A stretch of 62,886 nucleotides of DNA, the filler included, from Kipferlia bialata (lineage: Eukaryota), in the NCBI GenBank assembly GCA_003568945.1. It is 4 parts of 4 records of this genome, joined end to end, with 100 filler letters (N's around TTAATTAATTAA, not from the genome) between each part and the next. Parts side by side here need not be neighbours in the genome. Positions count along the whole stretch, not along the records: positions 1 to 22,857 come from BDIP01000015.1; positions 22,958 to 37,820 come from BDIP01000021.1; positions 37,921 to 56,143 come from BDIP01000022.1; positions 56,244 to 62,886 come from BDIP01000026.1. One strand, written 5' to 3'. A program made the translations under genes and the position numbers. Of this stretch, positions 1,647 through 62,586 are shown in pieces (the first letter of the stretch is position 1; every line of letters begins with the position of its first letter). The notes under the pieces were generated by a model. That model did no database searches and had not been told where the DNA came from. It saw nothing but the letters and a program-made list of their open reading frames with translations.

Positions 1647-4600
1647 TGTGTAGGTGTGGTTCAACTTCCATACGTATATAATTATGAAAGCACTAGTGGT
1701 ACCAAAAATTCCCTCGAATCGTACTAATCATACTCATCACGTAGAACATAAGTCATCTATATGGAAAATACACGTATACTACATTATACGTACCGTCAGA
1801 TAGCACACATGACGTGTATGTATCAAATGCGCTGTACTTGTATGGTCCTGTCAGACTCTCCACACCAGGCAGGGTACATAGGGTCTTGGTACGAGCGGAA
1901 CTGTTGTTGAGTGGCATACATACACAATAAACAGAGTGTATATGTACATGAGTCCATCACAATTCCGACTCAGTTCCAGTGGATGTCTTGTTCGGTAGCA
2001 TGAATATATTTGCGTAATAGAGGTGAGAAGTACAGCTGGATACCAAAACGGACCTCACTGCGTCATGCCCATACACATGGCCATCCTTGTCAATCATATA
2101 TGTATGTATATATATATATATATATATCTATATGCATACTATATAGTAATAGTATGAATATAAAATACACTACCTTATTGCGTCATGCCCATACACATGG
2201 CCATCCTTGTCGAAACACACAGACACACACATATTAATAACTATACATTATGAACAATGATGCACACTTCAATACACACCGTAGTATACTATATGTACCT
2301 GACTGCGTCATGCCCATACACCTGGCCATCCTTACACACACACACGCACGCACACACACACATATATATATAGAACCATACTATACACTATATACTACAT
2401 ACCTCACTGCGTCATGCCCATACACATGGCCATCCCTGTCAATCATATATATATAAATATATGTATATATATGTATGCATACTAAATAGTAATAGTATGA
2501 ATATAGAATACACTACCTTATGGCGTCATGCCCATACACATGGCCATCCTTGTCAATCATATATATATGTATATTTANNNNNNNNNNNNNNNNNNNNNNN
2601 NNNNNNNNNNNNNNNNNNNNNNNNNNNNNNNNNNNNNNNNNNTACTAAATAGTAATAGTATGAATATAAAATACACTACCTCACTGCGTCATGCCCACAC
2701 ACATGGCCATTCTTGTCGAAGCTGAGCGAGAGACCATCACCGACGTCCTGAGGGATTAGTTAATCATATACACACATACATACGTATATATAATATATAG
2801 TATATATAGAGAGAGAGTGATATACCTGCATTCCAATACACTCCTTCTCTGAGGCGTGTTGTGTCCACACACCCTCAGGATACGCAGCGCTAGGTGCGGT
2901 ATAGGAGAGGTGGATCTGCTCCTTGGTGTCCTCAGAGGAGGCAGTCAGGTACATGTCCCTTCTGGTTATATACATATCTATGTATGCATATACATATATA
3001 TACACATTGAATACCATTACAATACTATATATAAGGATCAGAGGAGGCAGTCAGATACATGTCCCTATTGGTTAGTATCTTTGTGTGTCTTATCCGGAGT
3101 ATAGTATATATATCCGATGCATGGTACTACTCCTTATTGTCCTGGGAAGGCAGTCACGTGCATATCTCTTGTGGTTAATGGGTAAGATGGTATATATCCC
3201 TAGGTTATGGAGATGGCCGAATTATGACGATCTCCACTATACAGAAAGATTATATGTAGCACAACACATGTAAAGATAGCATACTTGTATGGGACCATAC
3301 CCTCCAATAGTGTGGCAGCTTTATGGTGTGACAATGTAACTCCCAGTTTGTTTAGGATACGAGTGACACATATATAGAATGCAAATGTGAATGGTACTTA
3401 CCCCCCAACGGTGTGGCAGCGTAGCTCCCACTCAACCTCTAGTGAGAAGATTGGTGGTGAGGGTGCTCCTCTCTGGGATGAGAGGTGATTACACAAAGAG
3501 TCATTATACTGTAAATCTCTAGGAATGGAGGAGACATATATATATATATATATACACGCAGAATACTTACCGTCCACGTGTTTGTGTGTGTGTCTAATAT
3601 CCATGGATACACTACACCAGGGTCGTTGTTGGCACTGCTGCTACTGCTCTCCTCCATACCCACATCCCCTTCGGAACTCTCTGACTCATCTTCTGCCTCT
3701 CCATCTCCCTCTTCCTCTCCTTGTTCAGTGATCCTCTCAATAGGGTCGTGTGGTATATCTGGCTGTACCGCACAGACAAGCTAGAGTGAGTACATACGAG
3801 CACACAGTATACGTATGATTATAGACATATATATACATATATACATCTGACTGCGCGGCACAGACAAGCTGGAGTGAGATTGTCTAGGAAGTAAAATTAC
3901 AAACTCAATGAGTAAATAGTTGTCCAGAAGAGAGTATCATGTGTAGAACCAAAACATGGTGTCCCAGGTCTTCTCAGTAGGATACATAAACAAATATATG
4001 TATATTGCATATTTTTGTAATACACATACAGTATGTACCTTGTCCTCTCCCAGCCTATATCTAGTATCTATATATCAAAATATCTAAATATTTACATATA
4101 TATTAAAGTATGTCCTTGATATTATATATACATATGTAAATATATGTATATATATATTGTAGTAGTCCTCTCCCAGTCTGGCCAACGAGACTCGATAAAT
4201 GTAGGATACACATACAATACTAAGTATCATGTATTTATGTATGTTGTATATATGTATATGTTATGTATATATATACTATACCTTGTCCTCTCCCAGCCTA
4301 GCCACCGAGACGTCATAGATGAAGGATAGACATACAATACTGAGCATCATATATATACGTATATTATATATATATATGTTGAATACTATACCTTGTCCTC
4401 TCCCAGCCTAGCCATCGAGACGTCATAGATGAAGGGTCCCTAGGGTTAGTGTGAATGTCCTCATTCCTATATATATCTCAATATATACCGTGTATATGGA
4501 TATACATCACCTATACCGAGTTTGGAAGTGTCTCCAGTATCATGGTATCTACGCTCAGAACATAAATATACAGAGAGTAAATATAATATATAAAATATAC

Positions 4601-6197
4601 AATACAATGTAAACACAACCATGTATATCATGTCAAGAATACCTATCTCTCCTCTGTCAATGTCTCCCATGACATGGTATCTAGACTCATATGAAACATA
4701 TACTATGGTATATTTACCACACTGTATTTCTATGGCATAGAGTACCTCTCTCTCCTCTGTCAATGTCTCCTATGACATGGTGACCAGACTGAGTACATGC
4801 ACATACAGTGGTGAATAGATAGTAAAGCTCTATGTAACCTATATATATGTGATATGTATTACCTTTCCCTCTTCTGATACAATCTCCCATGTCATGGTAT
4901 CTAGGCTCAGGACATGCATCTTCAGAGGGTATGCCTCAGACCGGCAGATGTAGACCTGGGATCAATCCTATATATATATATTCCTCTATACTTGTATGCA
5001 CACACACACACATATATATATATATGTTGTATACAAGTGAAGACTCAGTGTAAATTCTCTATATATAGAGGATAGGTCTCAGGCCGGCAGATGTACACCT
5101 GGGTGAGACAATGCCACAGTAATTATCTATATAATATGAGACAGTGATTAGACTAAAAGCGATAAAGTATTTGTTCACTGTCAACATATACTTACCTTCC
5201 CATTGATACACACTGGGTCTGACCCCATGTATGGAGTCTGACCGTCGGCTGTTCTGAATCCCCCTCCCGCTACTCTCTCTCTCTCTCCTCTCTCTATCTC
5301 CTCTGCTTCCTCTCCCAGCTCTGGCTTGGTACTATCTACCTCAGACAGGGAGAGTGAGAGTGTATCTGTAACCGTTGCCTCCGTCACAGAGTATGACGCA
5401 GGACCGGTGCTTGTCACAAGCAGCACGCGGTTGGGACCTGCCGTGTTAGGTAAGAAGCATGTATTGAAGTATGTATGCCTGCATGAGTGATACACACCGT
5501 ATACACTGTGACCGTTCTGTCATTCACACGGTAACTCACGTATATGTGTACCTACTTGAACGGCCCTGAATCCCAAGTAGAACCGTGTGGGGAGGGGCAG
5601 GCGCTGAACCTGTGTCAAGAATAGTGAAATGTACAAAAGATGTATGTAAAAGTGAGTATCAGTATAGAAGTACAACTTCACGAGTATCATTGGGGATAAT
5701 GTGTACGCAAGTACATGTAGGCTGGATAGAGTCTAAAAACCCGTTAAGGCACCCTGAGTGGAAGCGTAACTATATAAGTACATACAAGTATGTATATATG
5801 TAGAAATTCAAGTATATATGTAGACATACAAGAATAAATATAGATTTTTGAATAGATATATACTAAAATGTATACGTACCCTGAGTGGAGACGCCGCAGA
5901 CTCGAACGCCCCTGTCTCATGCAGGGCGAGGAATGTTGGGATGGCATTCGTCAGAAAGTACTCCTGAGATGATAAGAGAGACAGACGGAGAGAGAGTATG
6001 TGAAACTGTTATTCAGATCAGAAGGTAAATACTCCATATACATATATAAGGTTCGTACCGGTCCGAACTTGCTAGGGTCCTCCCCTTCCATACTGTCCCC
6101 ACACTCTTTGTAGCACAGGGTGAGTGTGTCTATTACACACTGGGGGACGCCCTTGGAGACAGGGCCAGACAGACCTGGGATGGGTAATATATATATG

Positions 6198-6231
<34 letters not shown>

Positions 6232-9200
6232 TCCACTGGGGGACGCCCTTGGAGACAGGGCCTGAGAGGCCTGGGGTATGTCTACAATCACAAAATATGT
6301 GCTGGGTATTGAAGTACCATGCTCTTATTACATCGACAGAGAGGAAAGTAATATGGCAAGTATACTCAACCACAAGCCCAAAAACGCCTGGGGTAGTATA
6401 TGTATACAATACCACAAACTACTTGTCTGAGAGACGCCTATACGTCTATACACTAATAACGAATTACTATATACATATAGAGGCATACATGGGAATTCAC
6501 GTATGGCTCCTCGCTTGAGAGTCCCGTCCTTGGCCAGATAGTGATGGGCCAGGCAGAAACAGGTGCCATTATAGAGCTGAGGTCAACATATATATATACT
6601 ATATGAAATATGAAATATGAAGTCTAATAGCTAAGAAGAATGTGTATACATACTATTGTATAGTCCTATATAGAGTTCCAGACAGTATATCCAGGTATAC
6701 ATTCTTAGGTAGATACTATGTGAAATCTTATAAATACACATAATACATACATACTATTGTATTGTTCTGTATAGAGTTCCAGGGCAGGCAGAAACTGGTT
6801 CTGATGCATCACTTTGCAATGCCTCCTGTATATACATATAAATGTGAATATCTACTGTTATGAGTCATCCCAATGGCCATGGTGGGTACCACTAACACCA
6901 TTCATACCACATATATACTAATACATATACCGCTTTTATCCTTATTCTCCTCTACACAAAGTTGTGTGAATCTACCTCCTGTTTTGAAAGCTCCCAGTGG
7001 CCAGGCCTTGTACTGGACCGAGGGTGGAAGGGGACGACAAGACTAGCAAAGAGACCCTAGAAGGTGAGTATATACGAATAGGGGTATATATATGTATACA
7101 AGACTAGCAAAGAGGCCCTAGCAGGTCAGAATACAAAGTAGGGTACATATATAGATAGAGAGAGAGAGAGAGAGAGGTAGGGGACGACAAGACTCGCAAA
7201 GAGGTCCTGGCATGTGAGTATGCGAATAGTATAGAAGACAAATAGATCAATATAGATAATTATTTGGTATTTGGACTATAGGATATATATACCTCTGTGG
7301 CGATCTTGAAAGACGTGTCTGGTGTTGTCTATAGTAGTATATATGTATACAAATTAGTATTCATACCTCTGTGGCTATCTTGAATGGCGTCCACCAGGGC
7401 TTATCCCCAAGGTTAGAGATACCCTGTGCTAATAGCTCGGCTAAGACAGGGCCGTTGACAACCATATCGTAATTCCTGTTTGTTAAGGGTATATGGAGGG
7501 AGAGAGAGGGGTGAGGGACTGTGCTAATAGACCGGCTAGGACAGGGCCGTTGATAGACTATATCGTAATTCCTTTGAGTTAAGGGTATAAAAAGAGAGAG
7601 CGAGAGTCTTTACCTGGCCGGGTCCAGCACATACTCGAATATGGGGTGTCTGATCACGGCCTGTTTCTCATCATCAGCAGAGTCGGCCAAAGCAGTGATG
7701 ATGTCCTATTGATAAGAGAGAGAAATAGATACAATATACGGAGAGAGAAAGAGAGAATTGTAAGGAGTAACCTGTTGGGATGGAGACATAACAACAAATC
7801 ACGTACCGATAGAAATAGGATATGTCTGCATACACATATATATATATGCATGATAATTAACAGTATGTCTTGGTATACCGTACCGTTGGTTGTAACCGTC
7901 TTGTTCTCTCCTCCCTCTCTCCCTCTGTCTCTTCATCTCCTGGTTTCTCTCTCTCCCTCTCTTCCAGACCTTCTATTGCCTCCACGATATTGATTAAGGG
8001 TCCAGGAGGAGCAATGGATTTCTCTATTGCCTCCAGTAGTGAGTGGAACGCTGTGAGATTCTCCTCAGACTTGAAGAAATGGCGTCTCCTGGGATGAGGT
8101 ATATATATATATATATATACAATCTCCTCAGACTTGAAGAAATGCCGTTTCCTGGGATGAGGTACATAAAATTATATATATGTATATGTATATATACACA
8201 AATACATAGATATATACTAGTAGATAAACAGATGATATATACATACTAGGGTACACACACATACTAGTAGATATATAGATGTCGCTTCTTCTTTAGATAT
8301 CTTACACAAAGTGAAGTAAATGAATACCTAAAAGTCACAACGCCCCAGAGATTCATGTCTACAATATATATGTGTATATAGTGAGAGGGTACAATGTAGT
8401 GTTAATGTATATGATGCTAATATGTAATTGAAAAATCGTATAGACTGCACGTACTCTCTGTCTGTCTCTGTTTGGATGCAGGAATAGGTGATACAGGCCT
8501 GAGAGTCAAAGCAGTGAATATGGATACAAGCTGACTCACTTAGAGACGTATGAGGAGAGATGAAATGCGAATCTTCAATCACACTCTAGTCCCATGTCGA
8601 GATCATATATAGTTCAGTACTACAATTCGAAGAGTGATCTCATGTCAATGTGTATGCGGCGTCTCTCACCTGTCTCTATATATATACCTATATATATCTA
8701 TATATCTATATGTATATACATATTTACACATCACCTGAATGCACTGTACATGCCTGTCACTCCGGGACTGCCCACTGACTCTGGGGTCAGTTTTGTAACA
8801 CTGATACTACGGATATTTGGATATTTTACACTATACATAATATATTAGACATTATATACATATATATATATATACCTCTCAAGATACTTGGTCAAGTGGT
8901 CCACCACTTCTAGCTGGTATGGCACATATGCACGGACATATCTTGCATCAGGCCCATCTCTCTCTCTCTCTCTCGCCCTCTCCATCTCAGGCAGTAACTC
9001 GCCTGGAGTTAGATATGTGCAAAGAGAGAGAGGGAGAGAGGGAGAGAGGGAGAGAGAGAGAAAAAGAGAGAGGGAGAGAGAGAGAGAGGCTCTCCATCTC
9101 AGGGAGCAACACCCCTGGAGTTAGATACATGCAAAGAGAGAGAGGGAGGGAGAGAGATAGAGAAAGAGAGAGAGTGGCTCTAGTGAGGCATCGGACATCG

Positions 9201-10486
9201 CACTGTAATACGTATAGGAATGAAGGGTAAGTGTCATACAATGTATGTATGATACATACACATGTGAACAACACTATTACCTAGATCCAGGACTGCCCTC
9301 TCTGACACAGCCACGTCACACATAGAAAATATATATATATATGTATCTATACATATACATACTAAGAAATATCTATATATACCATTACCTAGCTCCAGTA
9401 CTGCCCCCTCTGCCACAGCCATGTCCTCTATATTATATATATACACTAAGACTTTACTATATATAGTGCATATATACTACATAATATTAAGAAGTATAAT
9501 ACTTCCTCATACCTAGCTCCAGGACTGCCCTCTCTGCCACACCCATGTCATACTCCCCTCCCTCAACCTCTCTGTCTTCCTCTGTCTGAAGAGTGGACAC
9601 AAGAGCATGCACCCTAGTGATAAGTGCAATACGTAGTATAAGAGTATGGTATATAATACAATAGTATACAGTATTACATAGTTATATCTTCCTCTGTCTG
9701 AAGGGTGGACACAAGGGCATGAACCATTGTCGTGAGTGTAAGAGAAGGAACAAGCCTGAAGAGTTTTCGCAGTGTCTCTAAAGAATCTCATAAATATGAA
9801 CTGAAGAGTGGACACAAGAGCATGCTCCCTAGTAAGTGCAATACATAGTATAAGAGTATGGTATACTATAATAGTATATATACAGTATCATATGATATAT
9901 CTCCCTCTGTCTGAAGAGTAGACACAAGAGCACGAACCCTAGGGGACAATTATAACAAGTATGGAAATGTACTGATTGTATCAACAATATCAGGCCCGGG
10001 GCGGGGCGTGGGAGGGGGGGGGACACACACGACATACCTCTGTGTCAAGGTCCTGAAAGACACATCGGGATCGGCTGAGTGAGAGGGAATGGAGTATATG
10101 CAAATGGGTATACCTTACATCCCAGTATATAGTAGAACTGAAAGGAAGGGAGAGACACACAGTACTCATGTATACTCTGTAAAAGGGGGAGGGGTTATAC
10201 AGGTTCCTGTGGCAGGAAAGGAGAGAGTGAGACACACACTCAAAGGAGACAGATGTGTGTTTGGGGGGTAAGGGGGGGGGGGGTATACACACACACAGAG
10301 AGACATACATGTATACATACCTGGTCTCCTGATGTCAGGCTCAGGCACAGGGCCCGGTTCTTCTGAGTGTCAGAAGAACAAATCAGTACCAAGTCATATT
10401 CATACATGTGCAAGAGACAATACTTCTATATGATAACTCAATACCAAGTATATAAACACTTAATATACTGCACAACACTCACCCAT
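912..10486 (-). CDS. Large multi-exon hypothetical protein, possibly with degenerate Kelch-like segments
   Basis: Many GC-richer exons bounded by GT..CTMACCCYAG, e.g. RHFFKSEENLTAFHSLLE, DIITALADSADDEKQAVIRHPIFEYVLDPAR, NYDMVVNGPVLAELLAQGISNLGDKPWWTPF, LKMHVLSLDTMTWEIV. Last exon ...DSAKGKGRKK* with stop at 912-914. Start ATG G|AA at 10486 is tentative; could be more than one gene. Confidence 0.55.
2054..2720 (-). repeat. Array of six copies of an exon 3' end plus donor site
   Basis: GCGTCATGCCCAYACACATGGCCAT core at about 2060, 2180, 2305, 2409, 2523 and 2686; only the last belongs to a complete exon. Confidence 0.9.
2578..2642. other. Assembly gap inside an exon-echo repeat array
   Basis: 65 Ns flanked by near-identical repeat units. 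Confidence 0.95.
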
Positions 10487-10871
10487 TAGTGACTGGGAGT
10501 AATGCCTTGGGTAGAGAACACAATCTACTCTTCAGAAAGATGAGCACAGTGATTGAAACGCCAGACGCTTATAGCGAACTTGGTGGTATATGTAGACTCA
10601 TCTCTGACCCAGAGTCTGTGAATATGACAGATATAATACTAAAGCTCCAATCATCCGTCTCAATTACCATCATGACGAGAGACCACCGAAATTCATATTC
10701 TATTCACGACTATGGTCACAAATGCAAACCAGGGAGAAGATCACATGCTCCTCAAGCTCTCTCTCCCCCTCTCCCTATGGCTCAGAGAACTTAGAGATCA
10801 CCCTCCAGCTCAGCCACCCTGGCCTCCAGCTCTCTCTCTCTCTCTCTCTTTCTGAGTGTATAGTATCCCTC

Positions 10872-13800
10872 TTACAGATCTCCCTCCAACTCAGCCACTC
10901 TAGCCTCTGCCTGCTCCACAAGGGACTCCAGCTGGGTGAGCTTGGCCCTCATGGCAGCTGGTCTGCGGTTAGATAGTAATACATATATATACATATACTA
11001 GGAAGAGAGGGACAGAGAAAATGGGTTAGATATAGAGACACACGCATAAATATATAGGAGAGAGAGAGAGAGAGAGATCCATCAGATGGGAGACAGCTGG
11101 CCTAGAGTTAGATCTACACAGTATAGGGTATAGCGTACCCACAACGTACATATATCATATATATATATATATATATATACTTATCATATATATACATTCA
11201 CTCACCTAGACCCAGGTGGCCACTCCTCGGGCATGCCGTCGGGACCCATCCTAGAGTGAGATATCTATATACATATATAGTCTGTATACATATATAGTAA
11301 TTACTATATACAGAGAGGGGGGGGGGGAGCAAAGATTTGCGATCACACAGAAGTAGTATGTATATATATATATTACACCACAGTACATATCCATGTGGTC
11401 AGGAATACTCATGTAATAGGCCTAGTAGTACCTGATTCCGAAGTCGTCTGCGTCTCCGTCCACTGCCTCAGACACATCAACAACCTGGGGGTTAGACACA
11501 TATCTACATAGAGGAAGAGAGAGAGATGGAGAGAGACAAAGACAAGTCTCCGTCCCCAGTATCAATTCCCCCAACAAGCAGGGAGTGAGGGGGAAATGTG
11601 AACACATATAGGTGTCCAGCCTCCTCAAACAACAATGCCCCAAAACAGAGACATACTATGAGACATACTATATACATAAATGAATAGATATATATATATG
11701 CATACCTTCTGAGCCTCTGCCAGCCTCTCCACTCTCCTCTCCTCCACCATCTCACCAAGCACCCAGTCCTGGGTGTCAGTGACAGTATATAAGAATCTAA
11801 GATATTCAAGAAGATACAGTCAGGTACCAAGCTCACCAAGCACCCAGTCCTGGGGGTAAGTATATATGACAATGAAAGTATACTCTATTCTACTAGTTCT
11901 TCCATTCAAACAGATATAGAGAATAGTGATAAATGAATGTAGATACACCAACAGTATACCTGCAGAGCAATGATGTCCTCTGTCTGCTCCCCTATGCATG
12001 TCACCACTCCATCCTCAAACAGACACAGCCTGCGGCCCTGGGAGGGGACCCTAGGGTCACAATCGAGTAGAAACATGCAGGCAATTTTATAGAGTATCTA
12101 CAACTTCTTCACCTAAAGCCAGCCCAGATGAGGTTGCTATATAGTAATTCATGTTATATACCTAAAGGCGGCGCAGAATGATCTTGTGTCGAGGTTTCAG
12201 TCTGTAACGTATAGACAAAGAATACGCATACATATATATGCAATACCTGAATGCGGCGCAGAATGAGCGTGTGTCGAGGTCCTTGTCACACTGGAGAGAG
12301 TACCCCAGGGTGTTGTCGACAAGGTTGGAGGCAACCTTGGAGGCGTTGATGTCAAACTGGGGTTAGTATATACATGGGTATATATGGAGGGATAGATAGA
12401 GAGAGAGAGAGGGAGAGAGAGAGTTGTCAACCAGGGTGGAGGCAACCTTGGAGGCGTTCATATCAAACTGATATTAGAATATACATATATGAGTATTTAT
12501 ACACAAGAAAAGAGAGAGAGATAGACTCACAGAAACACTGTATATATCCTATGTACACCACCTGCTTGCAGTCTGGGCACATATAGCACAATCTAACAGA
12601 TACATATATATAAATATATCACAACTGGTGTACCTGCTTGCAGTCTGGGCATGATATGGACAGGAGGACAGGGAGCTGCTCGGTCTGAAGGTGAGAGAGT
12701 GCTGACTACAAAAATCTATATTCATACACCATCATACATACTGATATCATATCATACACAATATGTATATGTATACTCTTTATCACCATATCATTACATA
12801 TTCATTCCTATACTATGGTTCATCCTAACCTGAGCAGCGTCGACCATGTCCTCCTCATTGGTGAACCTAGTCATATTTATATGTATACCATATATATACA
12901 CTATATATACACATACACACACATATATATATAATGCACTAACCTGAGCTGCATCCACCATGTCCTCCTCATTGGTGAACCAAGTTATATATACTACATA
13001 TACACTGATTTAATGTATATATACATACCTTTATGTATAAGAATGTCTATATATATATATATATATATACCTGAGCAGCATCCACCATGTCCTCCTCATT
13101 GGTGAATCTGGGCAGGATACCCTTGACAGGCACCACAAACTTGGCCTGATATAAGGGGCTAGAGGGAGGGAGAGAGTGGGTCATACCTCCAGATATGCCT
13201 CGAACGCCAGTGGTATATATGTATGGATATAGATACATACAGCTAGATACAAATATGTGAAAATGACATACGTATAAAGAAACACACACCTCCAGGTATG
13301 CCTCGACCACCAGTGGCATATACTGATAGAAAGATATACATTTGATATTCATAAGATGTATATACATATATATACCTCCAGGTATGCCTCGACCCCCAAT
13401 AATAAGTATAGATAGATATAAGACATATTTTAATTAATATACATATGTATACACACCTCCAGGTATGCCTCGACCACCTCGGGAGACCACTCGTAGGGCA
13501 TGACCTCAACCTGGGGTCAGGGATACATTCACACTCACACATACACACATGTGAATATGATATATTTATACCTTAGGCTCGTTATCCACTCCCACAAACA
13601 GCATGGGCAGCTGGGGCATGTTGGAGACACTCCGTATAGTAATTAGAGTATATAAATATGTGTGTATGAGTGTAAGAAGCTACCTTTGGCTCATTATCAA
13701 CTCCCACAAACAGCATGGGCAGCTGGGGCATGTTGGAGACATAGGGCACATTCTCAGGGTCATTGACATCGACAGAGAAGAAGGCACAGCCAGTGACCTG

Positions 13801-14368
13801 GAATAAGGGTCTAGATGGGGGGAGAGAGAGAGAGTCATTGACATCGACAGAGAAGAAGGAGAGAGAAGGAGAGCGAGAGGATCTGGAAAGAAAGTACAGC
13901 CTGTAACTTGAGATAAGGTCTGGGGAGAGAATCATAGAGAGAGAGGGAGAGAGAGAGAGAGAGAGAGAGTCAGTTATATATTCCAATATCTAACTACTTC
14001 CAATATACTATGTACATGTATAATAGTCTAACTTAGTCCACAGTGGCTCCATCTCCTCCATGAGTGCCAGTGTCATATATGTATATAATAGTAGATATTA
14101 CTAGACATACATATACATACTAAATATACGTATGCATACTATATACACACCTTAGTCCAGAGTGGCTCCATCTCCTCCATGAGTGTCAGTTCCATATATA
14201 CATATATTTATAAACATACAGTGAAATGACCACTATATTACACAAAAGAGTGCAAGACTATCTATCAGTACACATACAATATATACATACCTTAGTCCAC
14301 AGTGGCTCCATCTCCTCCATGAGTGCCAGTGCCTCGGGCTGGAGGGTGGCATCATAGACCATCACGAC
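10872..14368 (-). CDS. Thioredoxin-fold (PDI-like) protein, 5' part missing
   Basis: Phase-consistent exons: VVMVYDATLQPEALALMEEMEPLWTK / VTGCAFFSVDVNDPENVPYVSNMPQLPMLFVG / TEQLPVLLSISCPDCKQ (CxxC) / FDINASKVASNLVDNTLGYSLQCDKD. Coiled-coil C-terminus ...ARVAELEGDL*. Confidence 0.6.
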
Positions 14369-14623
14369 CTAGGGATAAGATATACACACATATATATATA
14401 CATGAAACAAAGAGAGAGAGAGAGAGAGAGAGAGACTTGGGCTGGAGGGTGGCGTCATACACCATGACGACCTGAGTGTTGGATGAATATAGTGGAGAGA
14501 GAGAGGGGGAGAGAGACTAAGGGTGCATCATATCTGGTAAGAGAGAGAAAAGAGAAAAGAAGAAGGGGGGGGGGGGGGGGGGGGGAGAGGGGGGAGAAAA
14601 AAAAAAAAATAATGAAAAAGAAA

Positions 14624-14654
<31 letters not shown>

Positions 14655-14760
14655 GATTATGGAGAGGGAGATACTGATACTGATACCGATACTGATGTTT
14701 AGAGTTATATCACGAGTCATCATCATGAGTGTATATACAACACGTACAGTAGGCCTATAC

Positions 14761-15159: not shown

Positions 15160-15190
<31 letters not shown>

Positions 15191-15626: not shown

Positions 15627-15665
<39 letters not shown>

Positions 15666-52100: not shown

Positions 52101-52503
52101 AATATAGACATTTGAAACAAATATACATGTAGGTATTTCTACACTGTACCTGCAGCTGTGCCTCCACCCACACATACATATATAGTATATACACATGTAT
52201 AGTAATATAGGTATATAGATACACCTGTATAGCAATATATGTAGGTAGTTCTACACTGTACCTGCAGCTGTGCCTCCAATGCTAGAGTATAGAACTACAA
52301 ATAGTTATATGTAGAGTAATACATGTAGTTATGCATACCTGCAGCTGTGCCTCCAGGGCAGCCACCAGGGCAGCGGTGTCATTGGACTTGACCTGGGTTA
52401 GAGATGATGAAAAGCATACAGCGCACATGTTCCGAACAGATGTATATCGCTGTTCATTCATGCATACCTGTGTATTGGGCACTGTCTCCACCAGCTTGCG
52501 CAT

Positions 52504-52535
<32 letters not shown>

Positions 52536-53376
52536 CTAGGTGTAGTATATCAATGTAGTATATATCTCCATACCTGTGGAATGGGCACTGTCTCCACCAG
52601 CTTGACCTTGCAAACATCTATATGTCCTCACATATGCATAGAATGTAAAATTCTGTATATATATATATATATATATATACTATTTCATATATATGGCTAT
52701 ATACCTGTGGTATGGGCACTGTCTCCACCAGCTTGCACCGCTTGGCAAAGGCTAGGGTGCTGAGGGTGAGACATATATATAGATAGAGAAACAATCCCAG
52801 TCAAGGAGCTATACAATGTTATCATACCTAATTGTCTCACTCAAGGATGTTTTCTCTGGACACACAGTGGGTATGACACACACACATATATATACTCTAT
52901 AGATAAGTGCATATACACATACTATACCTAATTGTCTCACTGAGTGATGCTGTCTCTGGGCACACTGTGGCTATGACACAGGTGCGGCAGTTGCCAGACA
53001 GACTGTTCTGTAGCAGCCTAGGGGTTGGGATTGAAGATACATTTGGAAGAATACACTGAATGGAGAGGATAATATATATTACACAAGAACACTTTATGCA
53101 GTTGCCACACAGCCTGTTCTGTAGTAGCCTGGGGGTTGGAAGAGTATCAAATGGATATGTAGTATGGTCAGTATATACGTTGTAAGCTTACTGTTTCTGA
53201 ATGGAATACCTCACCTATAAACACATACATTATAATTAGAATATATGTGGATATATATACCTTGTGAGCTTACTGTTTCTGAATGGGATGTGCTTGGTGC
53301 CAGGCTCGGTCAGGGCACTGATGACACTGCCTGGGGTGAGGGGTATATACATATATATAGATAGATATTAATATAC

Positions 53377-53409
<33 letters not shown>

Positions 53410-54533
53410 ATGTCATGGCACTGATGACACTGCCTAAGGTGAGAGAGAGAGGGAGAGAGAGAGAAAGAGAGTAATGTCAGGGCACTGATGCACAGACACA
53501 TGGATAGGGAGAGCAACCTCACTCACCGAGTGCCGACAGCGACTGGTTGATCCGCCTTGCCTCCTCCAGTCTGATGCCCCGGGACTGGCTGCGCTTGACT
53601 CTGGTGGGTTAGACACATCAATTAGGTGTATAATAATATATTTTTATATATATTCTGAGAGGCTGATGCCACGGGACTGGCTGCGCTTAACCCTGGTTGG
53701 TTAGACACATCAATTAGGAATATAATAACATATATATTCTGAGATGCTGATGCCACGGGACTGGCTCCTCTTAACCCTAGCCATCAGATAGAATAATGTA
53801 TATACACACACCCATATATATATATAGTATACTCAGTCGGATGCCACGGGACTGGCTGCGCTTGACTCTCGTGGATAGACACAGTAGTATATATACTGTT
53901 GACAGGATATATTACTATATAAACTAGATACACACCTCTCCGACCCAGCCAGGTCCACCAGTGTCAGGGTGGCCTGGGTGGTGGTGGGGACCTGCACATC
54001 GCCTCCCTCATCAACGTGTACAGTGCGGACACCCTCCCTGGGGTAAGAAGAGTATGTATACATGCATAGATTGAGAGAGAGAAAGAAGAATGCAATGAAC
54101 TTAGATACAGAGAGAGTCATTAGGATAGGGAGGAAACCTCCATGAAGTTTATGCACCTCCCCACAAACACCATATGACCGTTAGACGTCTAGTAGAGGAC
54201 AATACACAAATATACCTTCCCACTGATACCATCAGCACCGTATGACTCCTGGAAGTTGTGGCATTCATAGTATATGTATCATATATATATATATATATAA
54301 AAATATATATATACATGGATGTGCCTATATATGTATATACCTTCCCACTGACACCATCAATACTGTGTGACTTCTGGAGGATGTGGCATTCATCAATACA
54401 CATCATATCATACCATATATATATGTACATATGTGTGTGTGTATGTATATATACCTCCCCACTGACACCATCAGCACTGTGTGACTCCTGGAGGATGTGG
54501 CATTCATCAGGGTGGGGGCCATGGCTCTAGGGT

Positions 54534-54564
<31 letters not shown>

Positions 54565-56064
54565 GGAGAGGGGGAGGAAGAGGGAGAGGGAGAGAGGTGG
54601 CATTCATCAGGGTGGGGGCCACGACCCTATAGTAAGGGAGAGAGAGAGAGAAGGAGTGAGAAAGACGAGATGTGGCTCTGAATATAGTACATCCGTTCAA
54701 TAACCCCTCCTGCAGTGCGTGTAGTGCCTCTTTGGCATATAATCTCTCTCTCTCTCTCTAAATGCAACATATACTAACCATTACCTGTTCAATAACCCCT
54801 CCTCCAGTGCTTGTAATGCCTCTGGGGCAGACGTGACGGTGCGGGAGGTTAGACCACTCACATAGAAGCCAGTGGTATCTTCCCTATAGAGTGAGATAAT
54901 TGAAGAGAGGGAGAGACATAATCAAACATCTACCCACGTACACATGCATAACACAACACAAATATATGCATGATAGTAAGGTAACTAATGATAGTAGATT
55001 TAATGACAGTAAGGAAAAAGAAAGGGATATATATGCATACACGAGTCCATATGAGACTACCTCACTGCCAGTGGCACTGCCCCCTTGTCAAACAGGTCAT
55101 GCACACGGTCGAGGTAGATCTAGAGTCAGATACACATATACATACAGAGAGAGAGAGAGAGAGAGACATACATACCTGCAGGAACGAGATGATGACTGTG
55201 CAAAGGAGAAAACATATTCCACGTTGTTCATGTCTTTATCAAATCATTGATGAACAGAAACATATACAAGAAAACTCTCTACGAACCTGTAGGAACGACA
55301 TGCTGACCGTGCACTCCCCCTGTTCGACATCGCCCTCTCCCTCTCCCTCTCCCTCTCCCCAGCACTGGCCCTTATCTATCTGGTCGAACAGACACTGTAG
55401 GGAGAGAGATACAATGCCAGAGTGGGTGTCCTTGGCAGAGTGGATATTGGTCCTACGGTTAGATGACTATTATATACATATATATGAATACATATACATA
55501 ATTGTGTGAAGAGGGAGACAGAGGGGGAGAGACGCCAGAGTGGGTGTCCTTGGCAGAGTGCACGTTGGTCCAACGGTTACCTAAGTATGTTCATAATACA
55601 TGTTCACAGATACATAGAAACTGTATTTTAACATATATATATGAATATATATGGAGAGAGCAAACTAGCTCTGTATCTAATAGTATGGAACCACTGTCTG
55701 ATGTACTCCATGTCTCCCAGACAATATGTGGACTGTACATACTGTGAACACTATACATACATACATACATACTATAAGAAAATTCTCTATAGCCTACTAT
55801 GGATACCTCTGCCTGATGGACTCCTAGTCCACTATAGAGGTATACATACTGAATACTATATATACATATATAAATATATATTCATAGATGCACATACATG
55901 TATCCATACCTCTGCCTGATGGACTCCCTGTCCAGTAGACTCTTTATATATATATATATATACGCTATCGAATATACAATACATACACTTAGTGTGTAAT
56001 TGTACATAGTAGTGACGTACCTCTGCCTGATGGACTCCCTGTCCACTAGACCCATGGTGTATGT
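49187..56064 (-). CDS. Kinesin-like protein (N-terminal motor, low-complexity tail), 5' truncated
   Basis: TYTMG (after the P-loop), RAMAPTLMNATSSRSHTVL (switch I), LTLVDLAGSER (switch II), EARRINQSLSALG, HIPFRNSKLTR, LLQNSLSGNCRTCVIATVCP, ETISTLAFAKR. Confidence 0.95.
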
Positions 56065-56515: not shown

Positions 56516-57462
56516 GCATCATGTTTGGTCTCCTTGTCCTGGCCGGTGGCTGGTGGCTCATGGTGCACGTGCTGATGTGAGTGGATAGTATTATATACTG
56601 AATATATAGTATGTAGTGTATATAGTGTATGATATATATGTATGTGCTCATGTACGTACGAGTAATATTCCCTGCTTCCTCCTTAACTCCCCCTCCCTAT
56701 TCACTATAGTTACTGCAGGGTCGTCAGTATTATTGTTCCTCTCCCTCTCTCTCTACACTATTTCCCTCTATATCCTATTCTTAACGCATACCAGGGTATC
56801 ATAGTGATGATTCTCTCTCTCCCCCACTTTCTCCTTCTCTCTCTCATATTTCTATCACTATATATACTAATGTTTAGGGTCCTTGGCATCATAGTGATGT
56901 GTCTGTTCCCAGTGCCCATAGTGTATGGTATCATGGGTACGTTATGGACATATGTATGTTATGGGTATATGCATCTATATTTGTATGTATGTAGACATTA
57001 TTTCATACTGGAGGGGTAGAGAGATGAGCCCATAGTGTATAATGTTAGGGTACATTGTTTGTGTATATATACAGCAATAGGTATATGTCTCATACCAGTG
57101 TTCCGCAGTGTCAACAGTGCCCCAGACCCCCCCCCTCTCTCTCTCTCTTTCTTTCTCTGTATATATATGGCCATATATTCCTAATAACAGTCTTCCGCAG
57201 TGTCAACAACGCCCCTGACTCCAAGAAGAGCCAGAAGACCAAGAAGGAGGAGGTATCTATACAGATAGAGTATATATATATATAATAGAGAGAGATAGTA
57301 ATGCCCCAGACTCCAAGAAGAGCCAGAAGACAAAGGAGGAGGAGGTATCTATACAGATAGAGTGTGTATATATATAGAGAGATAGAGAGAAGGAGAGAGA
57401 GAGAGAGACTCCAAAAAGAGCCAGAAGACGAAGAATGAGGAGGTATAGAGAGATTATATATG

Positions 57463-57498
<36 letters not shown>

Positions 57499-57911
57499 AG
57501 GAGAGAGATTACAAGAAGAGCGAGAAGACGAAGAAGGAGGAGGTATGGAGAGTGTATGTGTCTATGTACGTCAAGCGCAAGCATATCGCTCTTTCCTATG
57601 TATCTTAGTATCTAGCATGGGTATTTCCTCGTACCTTGCCCACATGCTTGCTGTCAATGCTTTATATATATGTATCTCTATCTCTCTCGCCCTCTCTCTC
57701 TCTCTCTCTGAATCTATTTGTCTCTCACACCAGTACCTTGCCCATATGCGTGCTTGTGCATATACTCATATATATATCTATATTTATATATATATGAATG
57801 TATATATGTATATATGTAGTGATGGTATGTATCTAACCCTAGTACCTAGCCCACATGCGTGCTGTCAATGCTGCCAAGGCAGCTGAGCAGACAGCTGAGG
57901 ACGCTGTCTAG
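56516..57911 (+). CDS. 3' end of a membrane protein
   Basis: Phase-consistent exons GIMFGLLVLAGGWWLMVHVLM|VLGIIVMCLFPVPIVY|VFRSVNNAPDSKKSQKTKKEE|YLAHMRAVNAAKAAEQTAEDAV*. Confidence 0.65.
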
Positions 57912-58400
57912 AGAGGGAGAGGGAGAGGGAGCGAGAGAGAGAGAGAGAGAGAGAGTATGTAGTAGTAGTCTGCTGAGCAGACAGCTGAGGACGCTGTATA
58001 GAGGGGCTAGAGGGAGAGAGAGGGAGAGAGTATGGAGTAAGCGTACTAGGTCTAGTAGTCGGTAGTTAGAATTGAAGTGCAGGAATGCACAGACACCGCG
58101 TTTCACACGTTCCTCACGTTTCAGACGCTATGGTTAATAATAGAACTCATAGTATATTCGTGGAACTGGGATTATTGAATTATCAATATGAGTTCCCTCT
58201 TCTCTTAGATACCAAAAGAGAGAAGTAGATATCTAACACCTGATTCTCTCTATTCTTCATTGGTACACAAAACAAGTAACAGAAATTGGAAACATACACT
58301 GAAAACAACACACTTAAAGAATGTCTGTAATAGGCACTTGATAATAAGGCCCATGCTACAGCGACTGCAGCGTCTCAGACGTCTCGGGCGTCTCGACCGT

Positions 58401-59289
58401 TCACACCTCCGGGAACAAGTGCCTGAAGAGTGTTGGGTTGAAGTCTGGGAAAGACTTGAAACCTGGGTGTCAGCAACTACACTCATTTGGATAGGAATCA
58501 ATATAATGAACACATACTGTGCAGAAGTTAACATCCACCGCACTCAGGACATAGTGTAGTATATATTAGATAGATATAATAGGATATATATAATACAGTT
58601 CTCTACAATACACATACAAATTGTATAACATATACATATGTATATAATACCTGGGCAGTAGTTGACATCCACCACACTCAGGATGTGTTTTGTTAAGAAT
58701 AGTACAGTATATAATAACAGTATATACAATGAATACATAATGTAGATGTATATATACCTGGGCAGTAGTTGACATCCACAACACTCAGGACACTGGACCC
58801 TCCCTCTCCATCTCCCTCTCCCTCTCTATCTCCCTCTGTCTTTCCCTCTCTATCCCCCTCTCCCTCTCTCTCTCTATCCCCCTTCCTGTCCAGAATGACA
58901 TCGATGCCCAGCATGCTGACACTGGAGGTTAGAAATGTGAATATATATACCCATAGTGTATTTACATAAAAGCATATATATATGCACATATACATACTTT
59001 CATTCATCGGTACCAAGAATGGTGACATCAAAGGACTACTAGTCATAGATATACTCATACATACTCACTTTAGCCTGGCCGATAGGGCCAGACACGTCTT
59101 CCTAAGGACAGACAGCTCAGCCTGGGGTGAATAATAGGGGGTAGAAGATGAAGAAAGGGTGTAGAAGGAGAGAGAATAGTCTTCCTAAGGACAGACAACT
59201 CAGCCTGGGGTGAATATACTATATATTCACCACACACGCATACATATGGGGTGCAAGGAGGTATGAAGAGTGAAGGAGGATAGAAGTAG

Positions 59290-59335
<46 letters not shown>

Positions 59336-61469
59336 CACCTCAGACAGGTTGTGGGGTGTCACTGGGCTGGAGCGCATGAAGGACTGGGGGTAAGGGTAGA
59401 TAAGGGAACCATATTCAATAAGAAAATACACATATTCCATATATATATATCTACTCACTATTACTATATACTCACTACTGTTATACACAATACACATATA
59501 TATATCTGGAGCACATGACGGACTGGGTACAAGGGAGGGATAACATATACGTATCATAAGTGCGTACTATATATACAGATATTACCTACAAAGATATGGA
59601 GGGCAAGAATGATAGGGAGTATGGGGGTAGACTCTAAAAGAAATAGATGATAGTGGGAAGAACACAGAGGTCAAGGCAAATTAATATTCAATACATATTA
59701 CACATATAGAATATTCATATAGAAAATATATGTACCTGACTGTTGAATGGGACAGTGTCCACAGCAGGGTCAGAGAGTGATATATAATGTTACATGAACT
59801 CATAAAATAATACATTATAAGTGTAAGTTGTCTATATAGTCATTGTTATAGTGTCAATTAAGTCTCATACTGACCTGACTGTTGAATGGCACAGTGTCCA
59901 CAGCAGGGTCAGACAGAGTGCGGACTAGGGCCTGGGAATAAGGGCGTAGAGGGAATGCAAATCAAAAATATGGTATCCCGTACCTGTACTGGCTCTGACA
60001 CGTCTCCGCATATCACGTGCATACATGGACATATATATATATAAGTGTGTGTGTATATATACATACATATATTGCTTACACTTATACACTCTATGTATAC
60101 CTGCACCGGTTCTGACACGTCTCTGCATATCACGTGCATGGAGTCACCGATCATATAGACCTAAGAATGAGGGGGTAGCAATCTAATTGAGGGTGTATAC
60201 TCAGGGTGTATAATGGTGTAGTCCATGAATTGGCAAATGGGAAGGAAATAGATGTAAACTAATTTCTATATCTGACAACACTCTCACACCTTGTACACTG
60301 TGCTGTTCAGTAGGAAGGGCATGAATAAGGGTGTAGCACAAGAATATGGGTGTATAGGTGCAACTGCTTATAGTACAGTAAGATCAAATAGAATATATAT
60401 ATATACCTTGTACACTGTGCTGTGCAGTAGGAAGGGCATCGCAATGACAGCCTCCCTGCACCCTTTATCCTCTGTGCTAGACCCTTTATCCACTAGGGAG
60501 AGAGAGGTGTCGGCGGCACAGAGCTGCAGACTGGGTCTGAGTGGAAATTAAATAAACACGCATACATTCAGATATGCATATATATACCCATTTAGATGGA
60601 GAGCTGCCTACACTACAATAAAATAGGTATAATAATTAATATTGGCAATAATTATTAACATATACAATATATTCTACATGCACTATATATATACCTGTGA
60701 CTGATGCTGGGCCCACAGCCCCAGAAGGGCAATATATATATGTGTATATATGTAAATGTATGTAAATAGTAATAATGTATTTATGCATATATGAACTATA
60801 CATATATATATAGTACCTGTGACTGATGCTGGGCCCACAGCCCCAGAAGGGCTTGAGGATGGTGATGCCTGAGTGTAAGGGTGAAGAGGGAGATCAATAT
60901 GGTATACAAAGAGAAGCTAAGAATAATAGATTTTATGAAAACACTGGTGAACATAGAACAATGGGTGGGTGAACGAGCCCATGAAAGTTGAGAAGTGTCC
61001 GAATCATACCTCTGAGTTATCATTATATATGTATTTATACAATAAGTAATATACATGCCTGGGTATGGCAGGTTGACATAAGGTATATGTGAATTCATAT
61101 ACTCATATACAAATACTATTCATATGTATACATAAATATATGTATATATTAATATATTTATACACATATATACTAATGTATATATACTAATGTAAATATA
61201 TATACACATATATACCTGGGTATGGCAGGTTGACTAGAGGGGGTGTGGAGACAGACACACCACTATCTCTCTCCCCCTCTACACCCCTATTCAGGGTCTG
61301 TGACACATCCTGGACAACATCAGACAGGACTGTCGACATGTCCCTCCTGATGGTTAGATAAGTATACATTTATACACATATATATATATACATATATACA
61401 ATATATATACTTATACACAATACAGACAGTACAGTGGACATGTCCCTCCTGAGAGTTAACAATATACAT

Positions 61470-61500
<31 letters not shown>

Positions 61501-62013
61501 GATATATTGTATACTCATATGAACTGCAATATATATATGCAATAGTAACATGACGACATCAGACAGGACAGTCGACATGTCTCTCCTGACAGGGTTAGAT
61601 TCACAGCAATCTACACTTAGATTGTATATATACATATTAATCATAATAAGATAAATTATAGAGGACAGTGGACATATCTCCCCTTAAGGCTATATATGCA
61701 TTTATAAATATGCACATATATATAATTCATATTCTACTACCCAGGCACATGGACGATCTGGTAACATATGGTGGATATGCATATATGTTCCATAGAGAAT
61801 GTAAATTCATACCTATCCAGGAAAGGCTTCACACTCATGACTGGGTCCAATACCCTGATGCCCGGCTGGACGGACAGACAGTGGGAGAGGTCAGACAGGA
61901 GGTCCCAGTCAATACCTGATATAAGGGTGTAGAGAGAGAGAGAGAGAGAGAGAGAGAGGCAGTAGTAGAGGTCAGACAGGAGGTCCCAGTCAATGCCTAT
62001 GGTTGGTACTATT

Positions 62014-62046
<33 letters not shown>

Positions 62047-62586
62047 AACCTTCCTCTGGCAGACTGATGGTACAGGGGGATAGGAACATATATATATATA
62101 TACATATATATATATGTATATACATACTCACCCTCCTCTGGCAATTGAGACACTGGTGGGTGCTGCCTGGGGTTCTCTCCCTTGACCAGTGCTGACACAT
62201 CTTCTTGACTCTCAATGACCCCTTGACTCTCCTTGACCCCTTCTGTTGGGGAGGGAGGGCGAGTCACCAGGGCAGGTTGGAACACCCAGTCAGTCACCTA
62301 GAGGGGTAAGAGCGTTTGAGACGTTTATGGGTAACAAACTTGTAGGCTGGAACACCCAGTCACTGACCTGTAGGGTAGGTAGACTATGGATAATTACACA
62401 TACACATAGAACACATATTGCAAAGATATTTGAACATGATTATACCTTCTGCATCACGACATCACCCCTCCTCAGCATGACTCCTCTGCCTCTTCTCTCT
62501 CTCTCTCTCTCATCCCCTCTCCCCCCTTCTCTCTCCCTCTCCAGGTGCTGTCTGATAAGTGACTCTGGGGTCCTCACATGCATAAC
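58401..62586 (-). CDS. ITPK1: Inositol-1,3,4-trisphosphate 5/6-kinase (ATP-grasp) family, 5' truncated
   Basis: LPYPGITILKPFWGCGPSISHR, VIAMPFLLHSTVYK|VYMIGDSMHVICR, TVPFNSQ, VSMLGIDVILD...VLSVVDVNYCPG|FKSFPDF match ITPK1 motifs (KP...G...SH, KVY.IG, FG.DVI, IDINYFPGY). Confidence 0.82.

What the first reader, a model, noticed from the sequence alone, without database searches (positions are those of the whole stretch)
2054..62370. Pervasive 'exon echoes': partial exon copies with splice sites, fixed polarity and synonymous-biased divergence
Seen: in most microsatellite-intron genes on all four contigs, introns hold 1-5 short (25-65 nt) copies of the neighbouring exon end. Copies of [exon 3' end + GT donor] lie downstream of the real exon; copies of [branch point/AG + exon 5' end] lie upstream. 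Similarity usually stops at the splice site, and the flanking intron differs. In 11 copies compared codon by codon (10791, 12162, 12830, 12944, 13572, 14439, 15053, 22178, 22510, 22756, 54341), all 40 internal changed codons are synonymous, including two-base Arg AGA/CGC and Leu TTG/CTC swaps. These were hand-picked, and other copies (about 12424, 25599, 52828) do show replacements. Established: a dead duplicate should collect mostly replacement changes. Inference: these copies were under coding constraint while diverging. Possible explanations: snapshots of diverged alleles captured by unequal recombination or repair at microsatellites; remnants of duplicated exons used alternately and then eroded (exon turnover); gene-conversion donor cassettes; or an unusual splicing or template-switch use. 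I know of no description of this at such density.
Basis: partly seen in the sequence, partly recalled or inferred. Interest (0 to 1): 0.92.

Follow-up and report, generated by a model that had tools for sequence, protein, structure and literature searches.

The report
Exon-end echoes from captured alleles
In the free-living protist Kipferlia bialata, many introns hold short extra copies of the neighbouring exon end, spliced out in the one gene checked, that differ from the exon and from each other mostly at silent positions; they are likely pieces of other working alleles left by lopsided recombination, so one genome may record genetic exchange in a lineage where sex has never been seen.

Summary
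Confirmed, with weaker numbers. The window is Kipferlia bialata. A blind scan finds 94 partial exon copies, 93 of them in 8 genes, and none in controls. Polarity is merely what a duplication across a splice site gives. Unselected, 108 of 176 changed codons are silent: pN/pS 0.19 (bootstrap 0.11-0.27), against 0.43-0.46 simulated for a dead copy beside a live exon. Echo against echo gives 0.24 where dead copies should give about 1. Two gene segments (26 echoes) give 0.50 and fit plain decay. At the one locus laid, contigs show single-copy DNA, and a probable RNA contig skips the echoes. New here: sibling echoes share their cut end (15 of 22 arrays), units are about 100-110 nt, and constraint is strongest next to the splice site. 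Best reading (0.6): one seed duplication, then repeated unequal exchange with working exon ends of other alleles. No second strain was available, so allelic diversity is inferred. The scan saw a similar layout in a sea urchin gene, where the bias fitted plain decay. Ten literature searches found no description.

The parts
10791..14471 (-). Eleven-exon gene segment (my label TRX; no family hit) with 15 echoes; lowest constraint ratio among the larger sets
   Evidence: (21 syn, 3 non-syn, ratio 0.04)
13071..13797 (-). Three exons (13797-13684, 13510-13457, 13145-13071) joined in a probable RNA contig that skips four donor echoes
   Evidence: tables 5 and 8: X2 record 9, joints 13144/13456 and 13508/13682, 0 other letters
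13572..13629 (-). 58-nt donor echo of exon 13797-13684, three silent changes, own GTATAA donor
   Evidence: the shared 42-mer has depth 996 against 444-463 beside it
13187..13394 (-). Three donor echoes of exon 13510-13457 (13394-13376, 13311-13290, 13203-13187)
   Evidence: one 570-nt DNA contig spans exon, all three echoes and the next exon with 0 differences
12830..12979 (-). Two sibling donor echoes with the same cut end and GTTAG donors, differing from each other at three silent sites
10791..10826 (-). Echo of the last exon, ending at the stop codon, five silent changes
14720..16937 (-). PQ-loop gene segment with 4 echoes; the last exon is uncertain (14888-14917 has both AG and GTAAGT)
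   Evidence: (PF04193)
916..10362 (-). Long gene or genes of no known family (my labels G3, G3b) with 26 echoes; ratio 0.50, not separable from plain decay; model least certain near 6500-6850 and below 2700
21489..22791 (-). Four-exon gene segment (G6) with 5 echoes, 14 silent and 0 replacement differences in the cores
25600..25632 (+). Only echo on contig 2: acceptor echo of the last exon of a RING-finger gene (Rtf2-like, recalled label)
49187..56064 (-). Kinesin gene (P0001) with 24 echoes
   Evidence: ratio 0.21
52574..52604 (-). Donor echo that the deposited protein model P0001 includes as an extra exon, duplicating 11 residues
   Evidence: use in RNA not tested
56516..58001 (+). Small membrane-protein gene segment (G11) with 7 echoes; three donor echoes show flank likeness fading with distance while the exon part stays equally close
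58407..62586 (-). Twelve-exon gene segment (G12; looks like an inositol-phosphate kinase, recalled, no family hit) with 12 echoes
   Evidence: ratio 0.16
17218..21070 (+). MORN-repeat gene, short introns, no echo at threshold (internal control)
38000..39031 (+). V-ATPase D gene segment, no echo (internal control)
29702..33920 (+). Gene segments with short plain introns, no echo (internal control; models less certain)
44599..49067 (+). Gene segments with short plain introns, no echo (internal control; models less certain)

Best explanation
The echoes are tandem partial duplicates that straddle an exon end, and they likely carry sequence from other working alleles, brought in by repeated unequal recombination between homologous chromosomes. 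Step 1 (inferred): a rare seed event makes one junction between intron DNA and the inside of the exon, most likely when repair synthesis overshoots the exon end by about 100 nt and is closed by polymerase-theta end joining. Only products that leave one exon whole and lack the partner splice site survive, which gives the polarity. Step 2 (inferred): the echo can now mispair with the working exon end on the homologue. A crossover inside the shared 20-60 nt adds or removes one unit. The new unit keeps the old cut end but takes its splice-proximal codons, its splice site and its intron stretch from an allele that was working until then. After capture the copy is spliced out (shown for one gene) and decays. 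Shown: the copies, their geometry, the silent bias, the shared cut ends and the gradient. Inferred: the allelic source and both repair steps.
For: Two copies on one chromosome cannot both be the working exon end, so at least half the path between them is unselected and pN/pS should be about 0.5 or more (simulated 0.43-0.46; 0.80-0.92 if only the echo mutates). Observed 0.19, bootstrap over exon ends 0.11-0.27, and 0.15-0.23 across five detection settings. Echo against echo, never using exon letters: 27 silent, 22 replacement, ratio 0.24, P 7e-7 against 1. Changes private to the innermost echo: 13 silent, 7 replacement, P 0.0096 against 0.5. The ratio differs by gene (0 to 0.5; chi-square P 0.0013), as protein-level constraint would. 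Kinesin replacements are better tolerated among 176 homologous rows than random ones (13 changes, P 0.014). Echo acceptors keep a branch-point motif (24 of 32; real 61 of 69; other intron AG 60 of 794) yet differ from the real site at about half of 12 positions, ungapped. Unequal-exchange signs: the first two echoes share the cut end within 3 nt in 15 of 22 arrays (null mean 4.3; 0 of 20000 draws); unit lengths correlate within arrays (rho 0.44, P 0.04); ratio 0.10 in the splice-side half against 0.30 in the cut-end half (P 0.001); intron length rises 110 nt per echo. Context from papers: k-mer peaks suggest a diploid genome (PMC5874029); the species is listed with PolQ, Spo11, five Rad52, Msh2, Msh3 and XPF and without Ku70, BRCA1 or Rad54, and fornicates lack Rad51A and have two Dmc1 (PMC8516963); failed strand annealing plus polymerase theta makes tandem duplications in C. 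elegans (PMC8654963).
Against: No second allele was seen: no other letters at the laid locus, a one-member cluster for P0001, and two metagenome scans found no relative. The model needs silent diversity near 0.2 among alleles, which would be extreme and is unmeasured. Flanks are far more diverged than the silent sites predict: donor positions +3 to +8 match in 48% (control 40%) while four-fold sites match in 84%, so very fast intron turnover or old intron haplotypes must be added. G3 and G3b (26 echoes) give 0.50. Changes private to outer echoes give 0.32, not separable from 0.5 (P 0.14). The gradient is not significant once G3 and G3b are left out (P 0.12) and may partly come from alignments running into junction sequence. 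Sequence just outside shared cut ends is alike in only 5 of 21 sibling pairs. Counts are small and frames rest on my own gene models, checked from outside for two genes only.
Confidence: 0.6

Rival explanations
1. Same mechanism, but the donors were diverged whole-gene copies (subgenomes of a past hybrid or polyploid, or paralogues since lost) rather than ordinary alleles.
For: It meets the same requirement, two copies working at once, and explains deeply diverged intron flanks without extreme polymorphism.
Against: Arrays hold up to 3-4 separately diverged versions with few shared changes (52 private against 7 shared), more than two subgenomes give. No close paralogue of the kinesin: one hit among 53 candidates, a one-member cluster, next representatives at 33-57% identity.
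Confidence: 0.15
2. Same-molecule slippage or sister-chromatid duplication at microsatellites, then neutral decay; the silent bias comes only from the live exon, perhaps with exon-to-echo conversion keeping the exon part alike.
For: Simple repeats lie at the cut end in 38% of echoes against 10% of intron windows. A few echoes keep a clearly related flank, for example near 9825, 53688 and 57303. G3 and G3b fit 0.50. It probably explains a minority of echoes.
Against: Predicts 0.43-0.46 or more and about 1 between echoes; observed 0.19 and 0.24. Does not give branch-point motifs that differ yet still fit the consensus. No strong drift to A+T (silent 49 against 39; replacement 23 against 23).
Confidence: 0.07
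3. Echoes are used today, as alternative exon ends in rare isoforms or through an unusual splicing or template switch, so selection still acts on their codons.
For: GT, AG and branch motifs are mostly intact. The deposited kinesin model uses one echo as an exon. One copy at 14888-14917 has both splice sites.
Against: 0 of 53 donor echoes have a branch-point acceptor at the cut end, and GT(A/G) near acceptor-echo cut ends is below background (9 of 41 against 52%; base composition differs there). The probable RNA contig joins across four echoes. Damaging changes occur, such as S to T at a 99%-conserved kinesin serine, and one stop. Contigs drop rare forms, so low-level use is not excluded.
Confidence: 0.08
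4. Assembly artefact: two haplotypes of a diploid merged in tandem by a short-read assembler.
For: Short-read draft with many small scaffolds, probably diploid (PMC5874029). Unit length is close to a typical read length. Run X1 may be the source of the assembly and is then not independent.
Against: A merge cannot create intron-to-mid-exon junction words, yet 0.95 of sampled 31-letter words of 10400-20300 are held in X1. One 570-nt contig spans exon, three echoes and the next exon with 0 differences at depth 444; the word shared by exon and echo has depth 996; no other letters are listed. Up to four versions exceed two haplotypes. Tested at one 815-nt locus only, with contigs, not single molecules.
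Confidence: 0.04

Closest known systems
Human F7 intron 7 37-bp VNTR whose first element spans the exon-intron boundary (PMC1557585, abstract read)
   Same: Tandem copies of an exon end plus donor lie downstream of the true donor and stay silent; the most upstream donor is used.
   Different: One locus with near-identical minisatellite units. Here 59 of 138 exon ends in 8 genes, both donors and acceptors, units with mostly unrelated intron parts, and codon-level constraint between copies.
Tandem duplications from failed strand annealing closed by polymerase theta in C. elegans helq-1 and BRCA1 mutants (PMC8654963, passages read; PMC7368036, search listing only)
   Same: Head-to-tail duplicates from overshooting repair synthesis; K. 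bialata is listed with PolQ and without BRCA1 or Ku70.
   Different: There the template is the sister, copies are identical and about 100 bp to 10 kb (median about 1 kb). Here units are about 60-140 nt, tied to exon ends, and diverged like working alleles.
Tandem exon duplication and mutually exclusive exons (PMC8373072, PMC5740500, PMC12343006; search listing only)
   Same: Exon copies in neighbouring introns with protein-level conservation.
   Different: Those copies are whole exons with both splice sites and are spliced in. Echoes are partial, lack the partner site and were skipped where tested.
Expansion of tandem arrays by unequal crossing-over (textbook, recalled)
   Same: A seed repeat allows mispairing; units share one junction and one length.
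   Different: One member of the array is a working exon end, so each inter-homologue exchange would deposit a piece of a selected allele.
Mobile elements that carry a reworded copy of a host gene end, such as the Allomyces atp6 hybrid (recalled; lead from e1-6078749, not checked)
   Same: An incoming, silently diverged gene end displaces the resident one.
   Different: No mobile element or endonuclease gene is seen here, and it affects dozens of nuclear spliceosomal exon ends.

Membership tests
Tandem duplication straddling a splice site (F7-type pseudo-sites) | Direct, adjacent copy of an exon end with its splice dinucleotide | tested here: met
   87 hits in adjacent introns, none in three controls; GT 39 of 44, AG 32 of 40
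Tandem duplication straddling a splice site (F7-type pseudo-sites) | Pseudo-sites silent; the site that keeps the exon whole is used | tested here: met
   Dominant form in one gene only, from a run whose RNA status is a guess
Tandem duplication straddling a splice site (F7-type pseudo-sites) | Intron part of the unit copied along and still alike | tested here: not met
   Unrelated in 82 of 90 scorable echoes; donor +3..+8 identity 48% against 40% control
Dead duplicate decaying beside a live exon | pN/pS about 0.5 against the exon and about 1 between copies | tested here: not met
   0.19 and 0.24 overall; met for G3 and G3b alone (0.50)
Mutually exclusive or alternative duplicated exons | Whole exon with both splice sites | tested here: not met
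   All but one cover at most 78% of the exon; 0 of 53 donor echoes have a branch-point acceptor at the cut end
Mutually exclusive or alternative duplicated exons | Included in some transcripts | tested here: inconclusive
   Skipped in the one contig seen; contigs drop rare forms
Polymerase-theta tandem duplications after failed annealing | Microhomology or templated insertions at the junction | tested here: inconclusive
   Weak continuation of the flank repeat into the echo (1.64 against 1.47 of 6, P 0.045); the donor sequence is unknown
Polymerase-theta tandem duplications after failed annealing | Dependence on PolQ | not testable with these tools
   Gene listed as present (PMC8516963 supplement); no genetics
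Array growth by unequal crossing-over | Units share one junction and similar length | tested here: met
   15 of 22 arrays within 3 nt; length correlation rho 0.44
Array growth by unequal crossing-over | Copy number varies between chromosomes or isolates | not testable with these tools
   Only one sample holds the stretch; no relatives found
Haplotype-merging artefact | Half-depth branches and junction words absent from reads | tested here: not met
   Even depth 444-463, doubled on the shared word, one contig across three echoes; one locus only

The most novel reading that the evidence does not exclude
Exon ends in this organism are continually swapped: unequal exchange both deposits working alleles as echoes and, in the reciprocal product, promotes an echo's splice site and intron stretch into use. 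Introns would then grow and turn over in steps of about 100 nt, and each array would be a readable archive of a hyperdiverse, recombining population inside one genome, possibly a by-product of repair that runs on Dmc1 and polymerase theta alone.
Probability: 0.3. Interest if true: 0.9.

Novelty: new variant of a known kind. Interest (0 to 1): 0.74.

Why it matters
If the allelic reading holds, a single draft genome gives evidence of recombination between strongly diverged alleles in a group where no sexual or parasexual process has been observed directly (PMC8516963), and an estimate of diversity without population samples. It also offers a route of intron growth: echo units make up roughly 47% of intron bases in the 8 affected genes (rough). 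The arrays are a natural test of splice-site choice, since a reduced spliceosome (87 of 174 proteins sought, PMC6679479) passes over intact-looking nearer donors in the gene checked. In practice echoes may mislead annotation: the deposited kinesin model contains one as an exon.

Tried and rejected
No whole genome is held for this window, so all counts come from 62.9 kb. No RNA holder is on record; X2 is only guessed to be RNA, and lack of X2 cover on echoes is not used as evidence, only the joints across them. Reads could be laid on one 815-nt locus only, so artefact and splicing tests are local. Two metagenome scans found no relative. Pfam gave no family for the tested exons of TRX, G3, G6 and G12, apart from one weak hit below cut-off. 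Rejected: polarity as a special mechanism (geometry suffices); frame or detection bias; base-composition drift as the cause of silent bias (0-fold sites 3.4%, four-fold 16%); echoes as full exons of an allele with an extra intron (no acceptor at cut ends); insertion of an element with a long target-site duplication (does not give silent bias between echoes). Expected but not found: younger-looking echoes with related flanks do not have lower pS (0.21 against 0.195). Outer echoes have more replacements than first ones (0.048 against 0.024, P 0.039), but shared changes in one array inflate this, so I do not rest an age order on it. The split into 8 echo-rich and 8 other genes was made after seeing the hits. 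Dropped rows: one duplicate hit; codons with N or an exon stop; exons over 320 nt; 4 echoes unscorable for flanks. Literature searches with no description of this pattern: (two were for mechanism); the genome paper's main text has no 'duplicat', 'tandem', 'microsatellite' or 'exon'. Subscription papers, that paper's supplements and one scanned supplement of PMC8516963 were not seen and could bear on novelty.
Full report
Source. The window is four contigs (1-22857, 22958-37820, 37921-56143, 56244-62886). A translated exon matches kinesin-like protein P0001 of Kipferlia bialata at 100%, a free-living fornicate. No whole genome is held. From passages of the genome paper: short-read assembly, about 51 Mb, 124,912 GT-AG introns, and two k-mer peaks that suggest diploidy (PMC5874029).

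Gene models. I trained a small gene-finder on the window and curated 16 genes or gene segments. Acceptors have the branch motif close to the AG. The kinesin model equals P0001 except that P0001 has 11 extra residues from one echo read as an exon. For the gene I label TRX, a probable RNA contig confirms two introns and continues into the predicted neighbouring exons. The other frames are mine alone; G3 is least certain, and the PQ-loop model has a stop in its uncertain last exon.

The observation. Exons aligned to their adjacent introns give 87 hits at score 14 or more in 258 pairs, and none in 1728 other-gene, 258 reverse-complement and 1418 non-adjacent pairs. Adding gene-end flanks and dropping one duplicate hit leaves 94 echoes of 15-58 nt, 93.5% identical. 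They occupy 59 of 138 intron-facing exon ends in 8 genes and 1 of 128 in the other 8 (the split is after the fact). Polarity holds in 93 of 94. That needs no special cause: duplicating a stretch that crosses a donor leaves the whole exon first and the fragment after it, and the reverse holds at an acceptor. Units are regular: 62 of 65 first offsets lie at 61-143 nt, later spacings at 64-137 nt, and intron length is about 129 + 110 nt per echo.

Is it real DNA? Run X1 holds 0.95 of sampled words of 10400-20300; it may be the source of the assembly. On 13056-13870 one 570-nt contig spans an exon, three echoes and the next exon without a difference at depth 444. The 42 letters shared by another echo and its exon have depth 996, a 130-nt contig crosses from that echo into the exon at 463, and no other letters are listed. 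A haplotype merge would give half-depth branches and no intron-to-mid-exon junction. This is one locus and contigs, not single molecules. In X2, whose RNA status is a guess, a 1082-nt contig joins 13144/13456 and 13508/13682, skipping four donor echoes with no mismatch.

The silent bias. Unselected, 108 of 176 changed codons are silent: pS 0.183, pN 0.035, ratio 0.19, or 0.24 with transitions weighted; bootstrap 0.11-0.27; 0.15-0.23 across detection settings; 1.29 and 2.04 in the wrong frames. The right null is a dead copy beside an exon that still gains silent changes; simulated through the same detector it gives 0.43-0.46. Here it fits only G3 and G3b (26 echoes, 20 silent against 35 replacement, 0.50); the other 68 give 99 against 37, 0.11. 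The cleanest test leaves the exon's letters out: first against second echo, one pair per array, gives 27 against 22, ratio 0.24, P 7e-7 against 1. Changes private to the innermost echo give 0.16 (P 0.0096 against 0.5); those private to outer echoes give 0.32 (P 0.14). The ratio varies by gene (P 0.0013). Among 13 kinesin replacements most are tolerated in homologues (P 0.014), but four look damaging, including a serine kept in 99% of rows. So echoes have a selected past and look dead now.

What this implies. On one chromosome only one copy can be the working exon end, so at least half the path between two copies is unselected. A ratio well under 0.5 therefore needs both versions to have worked at the same time, on different chromosomes or loci, assuming like mutation rates. 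Splice signals agree: echo acceptors keep a branch motif in 24 of 32 cases (real 61 of 69, other intron AG 60 of 794) while differing from the real site at about half of 12 positions. Flanks are unrelated in 82 of 90, and two echoes of last exons stop at or near the stop codon. Likeness ends where coding constraint ends, as between diverged working copies.

New anatomy. Sibling echoes share their cut end: 15 of 22 arrays within 3 nt, null mean 4.3. Unit lengths correlate within arrays. Constraint is graded: 0.10 in the splice-side half and 0.30 in the cut-end half (P 0.001; same direction but P 0.12 without G3 and G3b). Simple repeats lie at the cut end in 38% of echoes against 10% of intron windows. 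The partner splice site is missing: 0 of 53 donor echoes have a branch-point acceptor there.

Mechanism. One seed junction per array, then unequal exchange, accounts for these facts together. If an echo mispairs with the working exon end on the homologue, a crossover in the shared stretch yields a unit with the old cut end and a fresh splice-side part, splice site and intron stretch from a working allele. For the seed I favour overshooting repair synthesis closed by polymerase theta, as shown in C. elegans (PMC8654963, passages); slippage at a microsatellite would serve too. K. bialata is listed with PolQ, Spo11, Rad52, Msh2, Msh3 and XPF and without Ku70, BRCA1 and Rad54 (PMC8516963, supplement rows). 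Fornicates lack Rad51A and keep two Dmc1 (section 8), and Dmc1 may tolerate mismatched partners better (PMC6719624, abstract and one section). These are context, not tests. Both steps and the allelic source are inferred.

Against it. No second allele was seen. Silent diversity near 0.2 would be extreme. Flanks are more diverged than silent sites allow (donor +3..+8: 48% against 40% control; four-fold sites 84%), which the model covers only by adding very fast intron turnover or old intron haplotypes; this remains unexplained. So does the absence of echoes from 7 gene models. Sequence outside shared cut ends is alike in only 5 of 21 pairs. Old subgenomes as donors cannot be excluded.

Comparison and novelty. 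The parts are known: silent pseudo-donors in a repeat spanning an exon boundary (F7, PMC1557585, abstract), tandem duplication by failed annealing, and array growth by unequal crossing-over (recalled). It fails membership as a plain decaying duplicate and as alternative exons. Searches found no account of dense partial exon-end arrays with constraint between copies; the library lacks most subscription papers and I did not read the genome paper's supplements. Verdict: real, not ordinary, a new variant of known processes; interest 0.74.

Noticed in passing
56498 (+); 62606, 61932, 60886, 59949, 50532, 13814, 13162 (-): A recurring intron 3' end, a CT run followed by a CTACACCCTTAT-like motif and CAG, serves as acceptor in four genes on three contigs. 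Bins over two of these have summed depth 56,000-119,000 against 444, hinting at many copies genome-wide, though simple repeats contribute. It may be spread by ectopic copying.
   Followed up: partly
60160-60360 and 50532-50561: Degenerate extra copies of that acceptor motif lie in tandem inside introns; one sits directly before the cut end of the echo at 60322.
   Followed up: no
14888-14917: An upstream copy with a good acceptor and a GTAAGT donor 25 nt later; it could be a real small exon, so the end of the PQ-loop gene is unsettled.
   Followed up: partly
15450-15576: A 54-nt tandem repeat of a donor and intron start with little exon sequence and well-kept intron letters; looks like a recent same-molecule duplication.
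   Followed up: no
17797-17814 against 17889-17906: Short acceptor repeat with kept intron letters and only a few exon bases in the otherwise echo-free MORN gene.
   Followed up: partly
29700-33920 and 44600-49070: Gene segments with short (about 80 nt) introns almost free of microsatellites and without echoes, beside genes whose introns have medians of 220-360 nt: two intron classes in one genome.
   Followed up: partly
34487-37500 (-): A 3-kb exon encoding pentapeptide repeats behind an N-terminal part that looks subtilase-like (recalled); no metagenome relative.
   Followed up: partly
6680-6850: Intron-internal repeat and exon-like sequence suggest a missed or misplaced exon in my G3 model.
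   Followed up: no
14540-14660: Long G and A runs between the PQ-loop and TRX segments; possible gene boundary or assembly join.
   Followed up: no
kinesin and G12 exons, e.g. 51382-52062, 58758-58921: GA repeats inside exons encode ERERER-type runs, so microsatellites have entered coding sequence.
   Followed up: no
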